DNA from: Methanobacteriota archaeon
GTDB taxonomy: Archaea; Thermoplasmatota; Thermoplasmata; SG8-5; JAGLSY01
NCBI GenBank assembly: GCA_020696385.1
Contig: JAEHCQ010000011.1
Location: 1-14,149, forward strand
DNA: 14,149 nucleotides
Reading direction: 5' to 3'
Shown: piece after piece, positions 9,747 to 14,149 of the stretch
Layout of the letters: each line of letters begins with the position of its first letter
Position numbering within the stretch: the first letter of the stretch is position 1
Position numbers and translations under genes: made by a program
Notes under the pieces: generated by a model
What the model saw: the letters and a program-made list of their open reading frames with translations, nothing else
What the model was told of the DNA's origin: nothing
Database searches by the model: none

Positions 9747-9785
9747 AGAGTAACTACATGCCCCAGAGTAACTACATGCCCCAGA
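9747..9785. repeat. 18-bp tandem repeat (agagtaactacatgcccc x2.2) containing the infB stop codon
   Basis: Exact units at 9747 and 9765; degenerate relatives extend left to about 9717. Confidence 0.9.
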
Positions 9786-12143: not shown

Positions 12144-12203
12144 TCACGCCTTTATCATTATCAGCGACATTTTGAACTTGGTTATAGAATCAAGAGCATG
12201 TGG
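12144..12203 (-). repeat. Distal displaced copy of the cupin 3' end (19 codons + stop)
   Basis: Encodes PHALDSITKFKMSLIMIKA*, identical to the gene. 8 nucleotide differences from 12613-12672, all silent, including TAA->TGA. Confidence 0.92.
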
Positions 12204-12301
12204 CTGCGTTTTTTTCTTTTAAGGCCTTCTGTGCTGGCCAGGCTCCAAAAGAAAAAAATGCCGTTAAATAAGAAAACTCGCCTGGCATGCTCGAAGGCCA
12301 A
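12204..12301 (-). other. Structured repeat element, copy E3
   Basis: Outer stem ggccttc (12223-12229)/gaaggcc (12293-12299), inner stem gccaggc (12237-12243)/gcctggc (12280-12286). Highly similar to 13620-13711. Strand is inferred. Confidence 0.8.
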
Positions 12302-12304
12302 TAC

Positions 12305-12392
12305 GTGCTTACGCCTTTATCATTATCAGCGACATCTTGAATCTTGTTATAGAATCAAGAGCATGCGGTTTATTCGCTGGCATCATCAGCAT
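12305..12392 (-). repeat. Proximal displaced copy of the cupin 3' end (27 codons + stop + 4 nt)
   Basis: Encodes MLMMPANKPHALDSITRFKMSLIMIKA*. 9 differences from 12609-12696: 7 synonymous, plus L->M and K->R. Confidence 0.92.
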
Positions 12393-12605
12393 CCCCTCGG
12401 AAGCCTTTTCTTTTATTGATTTCTGCGCTAGCTCGGGCTCTTGAATCAAGCAAGCTTGACAAAATAGATGCGCAAAATCGCGCATCTAAAAAAGAACAAG
12501 GTTTCTAATATCGAATCAAGCCCATTTCATGTGCTTGATAAAATAGATGCATGGACTATGTCCACATCTAAAAAAGAAAAATCGCCCTCACCTGCTCGAA
12601 ATCAA
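12393..12605 (-). other. Structured repeat element, copy E2 (expanded by two double-hairpin modules)
   Basis: Outer stem ttgatttc (12416-12423)/gaaatcaa (12598-12605). Shares cccc.c.gaagccttttctttt, aaaagaacaaggtttctaat and tgctcgaa with E1. Confidence 0.78.
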
Positions 12606-12612
12606 AGTGTGC

Positions 12613-12951
12613 TTACGCCTTTATCATGATAAGCGACATCTTGAATTTGGTTATCGAATCAAGCGCATGCGGTTTATTTGCTGGCATCAGCAACATTTCG
12701 CCTTTCTTCACAATGAACTTCTCGCCATCAATAGTGATCTCAACTTCCCCATCGAGTATGTGCGCCAGTGCGTCATAAGGCGAAGTGTGCTCGCTCAGCC
12801 CTTGCCCCATGTCAAAGGCGAACAGTGTAATCATTCCCTGGTCCTTCTCGACCAGGGTTCTGCTCACAATAGAGCCATCCTGGTATTTCAGCATCTCTTC
12901 AAGGTTCCAGACCTCTGTATTTTCTCCCAATGTATCTACCTCCGGTTTCAA
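12613..12951 (-). CDS. Cupin domain protein
   Basis: YQDGSIVSRTL, TLFAFDMGQGLSEHTSPYDA, GEMLLMPANKPHAL. TTG start 2 nt after the HMA gene's stop. Confidence 0.9.
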   Translation of the reverse strand: MKPEVDTLGENTEVWNLEEMLKYQDGSIVSRTLVEKDQGMITLFAFDMGQGLSEHTSPYDALAHILDGEVEITIDGEKFIVKKGEMLLMPANKPHALDSITKFKMSLIMIKA

Positions 12952-12953
12952 AA

Positions 12954-13187
12954 TTATACTACAATGGCCTCATAGCCAGCTTCTCTCACGGTCTTGATAA
13001 GAGTGCCATTGGAAACTGCGTCTTCCTTTTTCAATGTGACAATAGCTTTCTTATCTTCAAGACTTACCTCGGCTTTCTTAACGCCAGATGTCTTTTCTAA
13101 AGCCTCTGTCACACGCTTCACGCAGTGTCCGCATGTCATTCCCTCTACCTTCATTTCAATTACTGGTTTCTTCCCAAACATACCCAT
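12954..13187 (-). CDS. Heavy-metal-associated (HMA, CopZ-like) chaperone
   Basis: VEGMTCGHCVKRV...EAGY; GGTGA upstream. Confidence 0.9.
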   Translation of the reverse strand: MGMFGKKPVIEMKVEGMTCGHCVKRVTEALEKTSGVKKAEVSLEDKKAIVTLKKEDAVSNGTLIKTVREAGYEAIVV

Positions 13188-13258
13188 TTACTTCACCATG
13201 ATGTAGAGAGTGTGGAGAGGGCTTAAAGGTATTCCCATTTTTTTGTTTTATAGAAAGA

Positions 13259-13477
13259 TTGACCTCCCCGCCCTTTGGACGGGGCTTCGAATATCAGAGC
13301 ACTCTGTGACTGTCACTCGAACATTCATTGAATATAGTACCCCGCCCGCACAAAGAGATGAATCAAATACTTCAATATGATTTAGTCAATAGCCGTATTA
13401 GATTTTCTGGTCGCGTACAATTGAACATATAATACGCTACCAGAAACACTGTGTTTAGACGGGGCATGCTCGAATGT
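13259..13477 (-). mobile_element. Putative non-autonomous IS200/IS605-end-like palindromic element
   Basis: Minus strand ends ...GAAGCCCCGTCC-AAA-GGGCGGGGAGGTCAA, a subterminal hairpin followed by TCAA as at IS608-type right ends. A second GCCCCGTC...GGGCGGGG arm pair lies at 13458-13465/13340-13347. No ORF. Family assignment is from resemblance only. Confidence 0.5.
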
Positions 13478-13496
13478 ATATGCTTTGTTGATAAAT

Positions 13497-13606
13497 GCAC
13501 TGCTCGAAGGTCAACCCCACTAGCTCAGTCCGACAATATTTCCATCAGCATCCATGTCAATGAATTCAGCCGCTGGCTTCCTCGGTAATCCTGGCATCGT
13601 CATTAT
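13497..13606 (-). repeat. Displaced copy of the fhs 3' end (28 codons + stop + 23 nt)
   Basis: 110-bp direct repeat of 13694-13803 (offset 197) with 5 mismatches (13583, 13586, 13588, 13589, 13592), all synonymous. Confidence 0.95.
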
Positions 13607-13711
13607 CCCCCCAGAAGCCTTTTCTTTTTGGACCTTCTCCGCTGGCCAGGCTCCAAAAGAACAAGGTTTCTAATCCAAAAGAAAACTCGCCTGGCACTGC
13701 TCGAAGGTCAA
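13607..13711 (-). other. Structured repeat element, copy E1
   Basis: Outer stem gaccttc (13631-13637)/gaaggtc (13703-13709), inner stem gccaggc (13645-13651)/gcctggc (13689-13695). Confidence 0.8.
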
Positions 13712-13716
13712 CCCCA

Positions 13717-14149
13717 CTAGCTCAGTCCGACAATATTTCCATCAGCATCCATGTCAATGAATTCAGCCGCTGGCTTCCTTGGAAGACCAGGCATCGTCAT
13801 TATTTCTCCGGCTATCGGAATAACAAAGCCAGCTCCAGCACTTAGACGAACCTGTCTGATGTACAGCTCGAAGCCTTCAGGTGCTCCCAGGAGCTTTTTA
13901 TTGTCAGAGAAAGAATACTGGGTCTTGGCAACGCACAATGGCAGATCACGGTATCCCATGGCCTCCCATTTTTTGATGTCCTTTTTGGCCTCAGGCGAGA
14001 AAACAACAGATTCCGCCCGATATATCTTCTTGGCCAGGATATTCATTTTTTCTTTAATTCCCATCTCCAGAGGATAGGCATAGTCTGGCTTCTTTTCGCC
14101 ACCCTTTGTCTTTGCCGTAATGGCTTCTGCAAGGGCCAGTCCTCCCTCC
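13717..14149 (-). CDS. fhs: Formate--tetrahydrofolate ligase, C-terminal part (5' end outside the window)
   Basis: [39 protein letters not shown] motifs. The frame stays open upstream of 14064 to the edge (EGGLALAEAITAK...YPLE). Confidence 0.95.
   Translation of the reverse strand, partial: EGGLALAEAITAKTKGGEKKPDYAYPLEMGIKEKMNILAKKIYRAESVVFSPEAKKDIKKWEAMGYRDLPLCVAKTQYSFSDNKKLLGAPEGFELYIRQVRLSAGAGFVIPIAGEIMTMPGLPRKPAAEFIDMDADGNIVGLS

What the first reader, a model, noticed from the sequence alone, without database searches (positions are those of the whole stretch)
12144..13803. Candidate new system: a structured non-coding element that comes with a replacement 3' end of its host gene
Seen, in gene orientation (minus strand): fhs-stop-[E1]-fhs last 28 codons-stop, and cupin-stop-[E2]-last 27 codons-stop-[E3]-last 19 codons-stop. 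The same element family separates gene and copy at two unrelated genes, with its TTCGAGCA motif 11-13 nt after each stop. Of 22 gene-versus-copy differences, 20 are silent (one is TAA/TGA) and 2 are conservative, so each copy evolved under coding constraint. Inference: a unit of [new gene 3' end + element] inserts into the gene, keeps it intact and pushes the old end downstream, twice in succession at the cupin gene. This is the logic of attP-carrying integrative elements, but here the unit is only ~160-300 bp, encodes no enzyme and is not tied to one gene. Possible mechanisms are target-primed reverse transcription of an mRNA ending in the element, or integration of a small HUH-generated ssDNA circle. 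I do not recognise a described family with this layout.
Basis: partly seen in the sequence, partly recalled or inferred. Interest (0 to 1): 0.92.

Follow-up and report, generated by a model that had tools for sequence, protein, structure and literature searches.

The report
Hairpin repeat that duplicates gene ends
A small hairpin-forming DNA repeat found throughout a group of uncultured archaea sits just behind genes and is almost always followed by a second copy of that gene's last few dozen bases, a layout that keeps the gene intact and that no described mobile element explains.

Summary
E1-E3 belong to a ~100-nt repeat family with 40 loci in this 2.28-Mb genome. It occurs in 21 of 22 genomes of the order and 24 of 101 sampled genomes of the class. 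A long irregular hairpin is supported by covariation (12 of 14 pairs compensatory). At 28 of 40 loci the element lies between direct repeats of 17-318 nt that are the 3' end of the upstream protein or tRNA gene; only 2 of 139 element-free gene ends reach the same score. Over 24 loci the two copies differ at 94 synonymous and 27 non-synonymous codons, and neither copy evolves faster against a sister species (23 vs 21 sites). Sister genomes show empty sites, shared old insertions and concerted evolution of the copies. Rfam, phage, plasmid and viral searches found nothing. Reverse transcriptase is missing (2 of 22 genomes), which argues against retrotransposition; one IS200-type Y1 transposase is present. 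My best reading is a DNA-level copy-in that duplicates the target's 3' end, followed by gene conversion and allelic exchange. The mechanism is unproven.

The parts
13717..14149 (-). 3' part of the formate-tetrahydrofolate ligase (fhs) gene. It runs off the contig end; stop TAG at 13717-13719.
   Evidence: open frame 13717-14148; ortholog in G002.
13694..13803 (-). Upstream direct repeat at fhs: last 28 codons, the stop and 23 nt, reaching into the first bases of E1.
   Evidence: repeat D2, 110 nt, 95%; z 75.7.
13607..13716 (-). E1, a compact copy of the hairpin element, with tag TTCGAGCAG, inner stem GCCAGGC/GCCTGGC and an A-rich tail ending GGCTTCTGGGGGG.
   Evidence: Covariance model R1: 80.7 bits, E 6.8e-18; alignment A1.
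13497..13606 (-). Displaced copy of the fhs 3' end (stop at 13520-13522), followed by a 12-nt stub of the element's 5' end (13497-13508).
   Evidence: (4 differing codons, all synonymous).
13463..13474 (-). Second solo tag, TTCGAGCATGCC, which starts a different composite hairpin repeat (family 2).
12613..12951 (-). Cupin-domain gene (112 aa). Its last 27 codons (12616-12696) are copy a.
   Evidence: relatives at 54-74% identity.
12393..12612 (-). E2, a long copy of the element with two extra hairpin modules nested in its loop.
   Evidence: partial R1 matches at 12392-12468 and 12530-12597.
12309..12392 (-). Copy b of the cupin 3' end (27 codons plus TAA).
   Evidence: (repeat D1).
12204..12308 (-). 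E3, a compact copy of the second subfamily (tail AAAAGAAAAAAACGC).
   Evidence: R1: 87.8 bits, E 1.2e-19.
12144..12203 (-). Copy c of the cupin 3' end (19 codons plus TGA), followed by the flank that follows the gene in G002.

Best explanation
E1-E3 are copies of a class-wide family of ~100-nt non-coding elements. Each folds as a single strand into a long irregular hairpin. The layout is a conserved 5' tag (CGAGCGAGCAG or TTCGAGCAG), a 7-bp inner stem of free sequence, a T-rich loop, and an A-rich 3' tail.

The element is, or recently was, mobile at the DNA level. It lands 0-70 nt behind the stop codon of a protein gene, or behind a tRNA gene. The insertion event itself duplicates the last 17-318 nt of the target, so the gene keeps a complete 3' end and a spare copy lies behind the element.

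The two copies then stay coding-like for two reasons. They are homogenised by gene conversion. Each can also recombine with the single allele of element-free relatives: the upstream copy through the gene, the downstream copy through the native flank. Recombination between the two copies removes the element and can leave a 12-nt stub.

The step I consider most likely for the insertion is a replication- or repair-linked copy-in. This could be template switching at a stalled 3' end, or capture at widely staggered breaks. It may be helped by the resident IS200-type Y1 (HUH) transposase.

Shown: family, structure, position, duplication, empty and shared sites, coding-like and symmetric divergence, concerted evolution, absence of RT.
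Inferred: the copy-in chemistry, any role of the Y1 enzyme, and the direction of allelic exchange.
For: Family and structure:
- 40 loci in G000.
- 91.1% of cells paired; covariation 0.647 against 0.226 in shuffles (0 of 500 as high) and at most 0.107 when the partners are slid.
- 12 of 14 pairs carry compensatory changes.

Position:
- A co-oriented ORF of at least 80 aa ends within 110 nt upstream at 26 of 40 loci, against 74 of 400 random places.
- tRNA 3' ends are duplicated at C11:632370 and C44:62069.

Duplication:
- 28 of 40 loci against 2 of 139 control gene ends.
- The downstream repeat starts -6 to +15 nt from the element's tail at most loci, often through a G-rich junction.
- Eight loci have identical or nearly identical repeats of 17-60 nt, as expected if the resident sequence is duplicated.

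Parsimony: every one of at least 25 target genes needs a primary event that makes both junctions. A single event that duplicates the target is simpler than an insertion followed by a second illegitimate join.

Imprecise ends, as in copy-choice:
- Shared bases upstream of the tag in copies at different loci (AGTAATAGCC at C33:1416 and C33:161076; ACAATTCC at three loci).
- 0-9 variable bases behind the tail.

Coding-like, symmetric divergence:
- 94 synonymous : 27 non-synonymous codons.
- Differences by codon position 20:13:106.
- The expected synonymous share if the spare copy decayed in place is 35% (p = 4e-22).
- G002 agrees with the upstream copy at 23 sites, the downstream copy at 21 and neither at 12.

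Recombination after insertion:
- At the shared locus C33:175440/L219 the copies are identical within each species, but 8 of 40 sites differ between species.
- At C33:199751/L230 the displaced copies of the two species differ at 5 sites, all at codon position 3.
- Differences cluster at the edges of the repeats.

Turnover:
- 8 of 9 G000 loci examined are unoccupied in G002. These nine were chosen for their long repeats.
- 7 of 17 G002 loci are occupied in G000.
- Stub-like tags sit at 'empty' sites: G001 at the C44:99266 locus, and G002 at the C46:100221 and cupin loci.

DNA-level:
- RVT_1 has 0 hits in G000 and hits in 2 of 22 genomes of the order.
- Y1_Tnp has 1 copy in G000 and is present in 7 of 7 sampled genomes of the order.
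Against: - No enzyme or intermediate is shown.
- Known Y1 (IS200/IS605) transposition makes no target duplication (recalled).
- The element is not next to the Y1 gene in 6 relatives.
- Y1 genes also occur in 21 of 64 genomes outside the order, many of them without the element.
- Element copies within G000 are only 79-97% alike, so no recent burst demonstrates mobility in this genome.
- Dense patches of synonymous differences beside long identical stretches (6 of the last 8 codons at C33:252801; CGC/AGG and CTT/TTA at C11:577123) are also what an imported foreign 3' end would look like.
- At C22:311298 the copy next to the element carries the allele type of G001, G003 and G004, while the displaced copy carries that of the closest relative G002.
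- 12 of 40 loci show no repeat.
- In families f12 and f15 the element lies tail-first against convergent tRNA genes, so the layout is not uniform.
- No read-level confirmation of the window.
Confidence: 0.45

Rival explanations
1. The mobile entity is a unit [gene 3' end + element], for example a small circle made by recombination between the repeats or by an HUH enzyme. It moves between related lineages and integrates additively by homologous (Campbell-type) recombination into the same gene. The direct repeats are its homology arm, and the silent differences are those between donor and recipient alleles.
For: - Long, variable repeats (17-318 nt) fit homology arms better than transposase duplications.
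- Divergence is synonymous and symmetric.
- Alleles are mosaic. At C22:311298 the element-linked patch is the G001/G003/G004 type and the displaced patch plus flank is the G002 type. At C33:252801 and C49:55155 the displaced copy and flank look native.
- Stubs remain at empty sites, as left by pop-out.
- Tandem gene-end/element arrays occur (cupin, C33:72717, C47:27144).
- No dedicated enzyme is needed.
Against: - It explains spread of an existing insertion but not how the element first reaches each of at least 25 different genes.
- At cupin, C11:577123 and C33:199751 the functional copy is the native-looking one.
- Both copies share 118 lineage-specific changes over 834 columns against G002, and only 56 sites differ between them. 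Any donor was therefore very close, or the copies were homogenised.
- Repeats of 17-24 nt are short for homologous recombination.
- Concerted evolution at shared loci shows that coding-like change continues after insertion.
- No circle was observed.
Confidence: 0.27
2. Retrotransposition, SINE-like. Element RNA, alone or as the tail of the host mRNA, is reverse-transcribed at a nick (target-primed). This gives variable-length target duplications and an A-rich 3' end.
For: - A-rich tail.
- Variable-length duplications anchored at transcript 3' ends, including tRNA trailers.
- G-rich junction bases behind the tail.
- One copy reduced to its 3' 38 nt and still flanked by repeats (C11:78049).
Against: - RVT_1 has 0 hits in G000 (94% complete), 0 hits in 7 high-quality genomes of the order and hits in 2 of all 22 genomes. 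The element is in 21 of 22.
- The second short copy (C11:568186) is an internal deletion between GCGAG repeats, not a 5' truncation.
Confidence: 0.05
3. Remnants of site-specific integrative elements (att-flanked mini-elements that lost their integrase), or assembly artefacts of mixed strains or of small extrachromosomal circles threaded into the contig.
For: - Duplicated tRNA and gene 3' ends are the classic attL/attR signature (recalled).
- All genomes but a few are metagenome bins.
- Differences between the copies look like strain polymorphisms.
- Four tyrosine-recombinase hits in G000.
Against: - At least 25 different targets carry the same insert, and the insert has no ORF.
- Repeats as short as 31-62 nt carry 4-7 differences, lie between unique anchors, and so are phased within single reads.
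- The same layout occurs in many independent assemblies and in a closed genome.
- The same difference between the copies (GAG versus GAA) is seen in both G000 and G002 at the shared locus.
Confidence: 0.06

Closest known systems
REP / REPIN elements with their RAYT transposase (bacterial REPtrons), including 'tagged' palindromic repeats
   Same: - Short, multi-copy, extragenic hairpin repeats lying mostly behind genes.
- A conserved short tag beside a stem whose sequence varies. Here the tag is G(C/T)AG beside the stem, and a second hairpin family in this genome shares the TTCGAGCA tag.
- A low-copy Y1 HUH gene in the genome.
- Long persistence in a lineage (shared loci).
   Different: - No long duplication of the host gene's 3' end is described for REPs. 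I found none in searches; for the REP papers I saw listings only.
- The Y1 protein here scores as an IS200 transposase (119.5 bits), not as a RAYT (28.2 bits against a cut-off of 80).
- According to passages of PMC6006769, only the IS200-type subclass is seen in Archaea.
- The element is about 100 nt, with an A-rich tail.
IS200/IS605-derived miniature elements (PATEs) moved as single-stranded DNA
   Same: Hairpin-dependent, non-coding, gene-agnostic, with a Y1 transposase available in trans.
   Different: - That family inserts 3' of a fixed 4-5-nt motif without target duplication (recalled).
- Here there are 17-318-nt repeats and no conserved motif before the repeat.
- There is one hairpin rather than two distinct ends.
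Integrative elements whose attP carries the 3' end of a tRNA or protein gene, and their integrase-less derivatives (CIMEs)
   Same: The logic is the same. The target gene is kept whole, and the displaced 3' end remains as a direct repeat behind the insert.
   Different: - No integrase gene.
- The insert is 90-220 nt.
- There are dozens of different targets instead of one.
- Repeat length is variable.
SINEs / non-LTR retroposons (target-primed reverse transcription)
   Same: Variable-length target duplications, an A-rich 3' tail and a structured non-coding body.
   Different: Reverse transcriptase is not found in 20 of 22 genomes that, with one exception, carry the element.
Mobile ORFs of fungal and other mitochondria that bring a replacement C-terminal coding segment for the gene they enter (recalled, not checked here)
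   Same: The host gene's 3' end is duplicated, the functional copy lies upstream, and the differences between copies are coding-preserving.
   Different: Those units encode a homing endonuclease. Here there is no ORF, and the setting is archaeal chromosomes.

Membership tests
REP/REPIN-RAYT | Multi-copy extragenic palindromic hairpin with conserved structure | tested here: met
   40 loci; covariation 0.647 against 0.226 in shuffles.
REP/REPIN-RAYT | Conserved GTAG (or CGTC) tag at one end of the hairpin | tested here: inconclusive
   The stem is preceded by GAGCAG in most copies of A1 and by GAGTAG in 4 of the 25. The tag is longer than a tetranucleotide and pairs with the 3' side.
REP/REPIN-RAYT | Single-copy RAYT-type Y1 transposase flanked by the repeats | tested here: not met
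   The only Y1 gene is IS200-type (NF033573, 119.5 bits; the RAYT model scores 28.2 against a cut-off of 80). The element is near it in G000 only, behind an intervening tRNA, and not in 6 relatives.
IS200/IS605 miniature element | Insertion 3' of a fixed short motif, without target duplication | tested here: not met
   Repeats of 17-318 nt at 28 of 40 loci; no conserved motif before the repeat.
IS200/IS605 miniature element | Cognate Y1 transposase in the genome | tested here: met
   One intact 143-aa gene; present in 7 of 7 sampled genomes of the order. Whether it is cognate to the element was not tested.
Site-specific integrative element / CIME | Direct repeats (attL/attR) formed by the 3' end of the target gene, with the gene restored | tested here: met
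   (protein genes and tRNAs).
Site-specific integrative element / CIME | One conserved att core recognised by an integrase; one target per element family | tested here: not met
   At least 25 different targets share no sequence with one another; the insert has no ORF.
SINE / TPRT retroposon | Reverse transcriptase available in the host | tested here: not met
   PF00078: 0 hits in G000, hits in 2 of 22 genomes of the order.
SINE / TPRT retroposon | Variable-length target duplication and an A-rich 3' end | tested here: met
Any Rfam family | Match to a curated covariance model | tested here: not met
   0 matches at E<=1 over the whole window, both strands.
Integron attC site | Structure-conserved single-strand hairpin recombined by an integron integrase, within cassette arrays | not tested
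   No search for IntI was made. The elements are dispersed, not arrayed with ORF cassettes.

The most novel reading that the evidence does not exclude
The element together with the adjoining gene 3' end is a self-addressing mobile unit. It is a tiny, enzyme-less DNA that uses a captured piece of a host gene as its address. It integrates additively into that gene in related genomes, always restores the gene with its own coding-preserved copy, and can leave again by recombination. This would be a homology-programmed integrative element, a natural counterpart of 'ends-in' gene targeting with a rescue copy. It would be spread over a whole archaeal class and possibly serviced by a resident, domesticated IS200-type HUH enzyme, which would make it the first REPtron-like system in Archaea.
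Probability: 0.27. Interest if true: 0.92.

Novelty: new variant of a known kind. Interest (0 to 1): 0.8.

Why it matters
If the layout reflects the insertion mechanism, this is a mode of DNA mobility not described for prokaryotes. A non-coding element enters the 3' end of any gene, tRNA genes included, without harming it, because 17-318 nt of the target are duplicated or replaced.

That would explain how a repeat can persist for long periods in compact archaeal genomes. It is found in most genomes of an order and in several families of the class.

It also gives a concrete system for studying gene conversion and allelic exchange in uncultured archaea. The spare copy is a built-in record of past alleles.

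It may supply portable transcription terminators. There are T-runs on both strands, and the tail abuts tRNA ends in some families.

For annotation, the displaced gene ends should not be called as gene fragments or taken as signs of misassembly.

Tried and rejected
**Searches and tests that led nowhere**
- Rfam at E<=1 over the whole window: no match.
- TnpB-type domain PF07282: 0 hits in G000.
- The element was not found in three collections:
  - IMG/VR, by one exact IUPAC pattern scan, which is a narrow test.
  - PLSDB plasmids.
  - INPHARED phages.
- The metagenome scan with the cupin protein gave 47 distant relatives (at most 74% identity), none with the element. It therefore gave no population-level view of the window loci.
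- The genome-contig scan with aIF5B served only to place the organism among uncultured archaea.
- Idea that the free-sequence inner stem is a guide matching the target: rejected. The longest matches to the flanks are 5.56 and 5.92 nt, against 5.61 and 5.68 for stems permuted among loci.
- Idea that the flanks carry orphan 3' ends of other genes (transduction): the BLAST of flanks was swamped by other repeat families and gave no clear case.
- Single-sequence folding energy is not unusual (z -0.1 to -1.1). The case for structure rests on covariation only.

**Reads**
- One public run is listed, with share 0.05.
- No RNA holder is listed.
- Its contigs cover repeat pieces only.
- There was therefore no test of contiguity or of expression.

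**Literature**
- Searches found no description of a repeat with duplicated gene 3' ends.
- Supplements were not available.
- Of the papers, I read passages of PMC6006769 only. The others I saw as search listings.

**Not tested**
- IS110, IS91 and Cas1 families were not searched.
- Taxon names of the G handles are not known to me.
Full report
**What is in the window**

On the minus strand the fhs gene ends with TAG at 13717-13719. It is followed by a 110-nt element (E1, 13607-13716). After E1 comes a copy of the last 28 codons, the stop and 23 further bases (13497-13606). This copy is 95% identical to 13694-13803.

The cupin gene (12613-12951) is followed by:
- E2 (12393-12612);
- a 27-codon copy with stop (12309-12392);
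- E3 (12204-12308);
- a 19-codon copy with TGA (12144-12203).

After the last copy comes the flank that follows the gene in the sister genome G002. TTCGAGCA starts 11-13 nt after each of the three stops.

**A family, not three oddities**

The window is a whole contig (C2) of a 2.28-Mb, 50-contig genome (G000, 94.5% complete). A profile of compact copies finds 40 loci in G000.

Alignment A1 of 25 copies shows four parts:
- a 5' tag (CGAGCGAGCAG, or TTCGAGCAG in a minority);
- a 7-bp inner stem whose sequence differs freely between copies, with both arms changing together;
- a T-rich loop, which in longer copies holds extra small hairpin modules;
- a 3' segment that pairs with the tag, followed by an A-rich tail (AAAAGAAAAGGCTTCC or AAAGAAAAAAGTGG).

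RNAalifold predicts 14 pairs, 12 with compensatory changes. On that structure 91.1% of cells pair. The covariation score is 0.647, against 0.226 in shuffles (0 of 500 as high) and at most 0.107 when partners are slid. Single sequences do not fold unusually well, so the case for structure is comparative.

Rfam has no match.

Distribution of the covariance model R1:
- 21 of 22 genomes of the order;
- 24 of 101 sampled genomes of the class, including families f6 (5 of 5, with closed genomes), f12 (7 of 7), f15 and f19.

It was not found in one IMG/VR pattern scan, nor in the plasmid or phage collections.

**The duplicated gene end is the rule**
- At 28 of 40 G000 loci, the 220 nt before the element and the 260 nt after it share a direct repeat with z>5 against shuffles. 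Repeat lengths are 17-318 nt.
- Among 139 ends of ORFs of at least 200 aa without an element, 2 reach the same score.
- The downstream repeat begins within -6 to +15 nt of the tail at most loci, often across a few G's. The upstream repeat ends 0-67 nt before the tag.
- A co-oriented ORF of at least 80 aa ends within 110 nt upstream at 26 of 40 loci, against 74 of 400 random places.
- Two loci duplicate tRNA 3' ends with their T-rich trailers (C11:632370, C44:62069). One duplicates a 318-nt block holding the 3' end of the Y1 transposase gene and a whole tRNA (C50).
- The layout recurs in 9 of 24 testable loci of other genomes of the order. It also recurs in a closed 3.2-Mb genome of another family (L198, L197). 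It is therefore not an artefact of this assembly.
- In families f12 and f15 the element instead lies tail-first against the 3' end of convergent tRNA genes.

**The spare copy does not decay like a pseudogene**

I compared 24 loci with an ORF of at least 80 aa (18 in G000, 6 in relatives; 516 codons).
- The copies differ at 94 synonymous and 27 non-synonymous codons.
- Differences by codon position are 20:13:106.
- If the upstream copy took only synonymous changes and the downstream copy decayed freely, 35% of differing codons would be synonymous (p = 4e-22).

With G002 as outgroup, over 7 comparisons (834 columns):
- G002 agrees with the upstream copy at 23 sites, with the downstream copy at 21 and with neither at 12. 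There is no rate excess in the displaced copy.
- Both copies share 118 lineage-specific changes.

Differences are often packed at one edge of the repeat beside long identical stretches. Some involve multi-base synonymous codon swaps (CGC/AGG, CTT/TTA).

**Comparison with sister genomes**

Of 9 G000 loci examined (chosen for their long repeats), 8 are unoccupied in G002 and 1 is shared. Of 17 G002 loci, G000 is occupied at 7, empty at 7, and 3 could not be placed.

Polarity is mixed.
- At C33:252801, C22:311298, C49:55155 and the 3' end of C46:100221, the displaced copy and its flank resemble G002.
- At cupin, C11:577123 and C33:199751, the functional copy does.
- At C22:311298 the two copies carry the two allele types that segregate in the genus. 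The G001/G003/G004 type lies next to the element and the G002 type lies in the displaced copy.

Shared insertions show what happens after insertion.
- At C33:175440/L219 the two copies are identical within each species, but 8 of 40 sites differ between species (five synonymous codons and one I/V). This is concerted evolution.
- At C33:199751/L230 the element's 3' half and the junction are the same in both species, and the displaced copies differ at 5 sites, all third positions. G000 has in addition a third, decayed copy further downstream.

Several repeats extend into the first ~12 nt of the element, up to the foot of the hairpin, so that a stub follows the displaced copy (fhs, C33:175440, C33:72717, C49:55155). 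Stub-like tags also stand at 'empty' sites of sister genomes. This fits loss of the element by recombination between the repeats.

**Enzymes**
- RVT_1: 0 hits in G000 and hits in 2 of 22 genomes of the order, with 0 of 7 high-quality genomes.
- TnpB-type domain: 0 hits.
- Tyrosine recombinases: 4 hits, none near an element.
- Y1_Tnp: one intact 143-aa gene in G000. It is an IS200 equivalog at 119.5 bits; the RAYT model scores 28.2, below its cut-off of 80.
- Y1_Tnp across genomes: 7 of 7 sampled genomes of the order and 28 of 71 of the class. It lies in a neighbourhood partly shared with G002.
- The element lies near the Y1 gene only in G000.
- Passages of PMC6006769 state that the IS200-type subclass is the only Y1 subclass seen in Archaea.
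- Element copies in G000 are 79-97% alike to their nearest copy, so there is no recent burst.
- The inner stem is unrelated to the flanks.

**Reading**

The robust inferences are as follows.
- This is a structured, non-coding repeat family.
- It is tied to gene and tRNA 3' ends.
- Its presence goes with a spare copy of the target's 3' end.
- It is gained and lost on the time scale of species.
- The spare copy keeps changing as coding sequence does.

The downstream copy together with its native flank is a perfect recombination partner for the single allele of element-free relatives. The upstream copy is equally part of the gene. The two copies also convert each other. Differences are then imported from functional alleles and look silent, whichever copy receives them.

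Every one of at least 25 targets needs a primary event that makes both junctions. I therefore think the insertion itself duplicates the target. The candidates are a copy-in by template switching or capture at widely staggered breaks at a stalled 3' end. Slightly variable bases at both ends of the element fit this. I give this about 45%.

It explains the mosaic alleles and stubs well, but not the colonisation of new genes. I give it about 27%.

Retrotransposition is disfavoured by the missing RT (about 5%). Artefact or att-remnant readings get about 6%. The rest is unassigned.

**Comparison and novelty**

The element works most like a REP/REPIN or an IS200-type miniature element in form. In outcome it resembles an integrative element that carries its target's 3' end. 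It fails defining features of each:
- there is no RAYT;
- there is a target duplication, where IS200/IS605 makes none;
- there is no integrase and no single target;
- there is no RT.

Four literature searches found no description of such a layout. I rate it a new variant of a known kind (structured non-autonomous repeat). There is a substantial chance that the mechanism is new.

Noticed in passing
window 13248-13480 (minus strand), and about 30 further places in G000: A second, composite hairpin repeat of about 230 nt with several GC-rich stems (GCCCCGTC/GGGCGGGG and others). It starts with the same TTCGAGCATGCC tag as E3. Its 3' end (ATCCACACCCAGC.TAACAAA) directly precedes the element at C11:577282 and C44:216384.
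   Followed up: partly
window 12420-12560 (inside E2); also C33:252801, C33:161076, C50:1548, C44:146219 and others: Small hairpin modules nested in the loop of long element copies: AGATGCG..CGCATCT followed by ATTTT, and ATCAAGC..GCTTGAT. The same modules occur in copies whose inner stems differ, so the element is modular.
   Followed up: no
G000 contig C50:1231-2396 (locus L043): The only Y1 (IS200-type) transposase gene is followed by two tandem 87-88-nt tRNAs. ARAGORN calls both tRNA-Phe(GAA) although they have a long extra arm. The two tRNAs differ by paired changes in the T-arm, and the last ~20 codons of the transposase gene are repeated before the second tRNA.
   Followed up: partly
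window about 9749-9772 compared with G002 locus L225: G002 has an element with a 24-nt repeat behind the ortholog of the window gene that ends at 9772 (aIF5B). The window has no element there.
   Followed up: no
loci L201-L212 (genomes of families f12 and f15): The element's A-rich tail abuts the 3' end of convergent tRNA genes, so on the tRNA strand a T-run follows the tRNA. This suggests use as a terminator.
   Followed up: no
window 13355-13465 compared with G000 C48:120276-120385: There are 110 nt of 100% identity with a stretch near the end of contig C48. This is either a fresh copy of the family-2 repeat or an overlap of contig ends.
   Followed up: no
G000 contig C1 (30.7 kb): The contig has lower G+C (0.423) and two tyrosine-recombinase hits. 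It may be an integrated or extrachromosomal element. No copy of the hairpin element lies on it.
   Followed up: no
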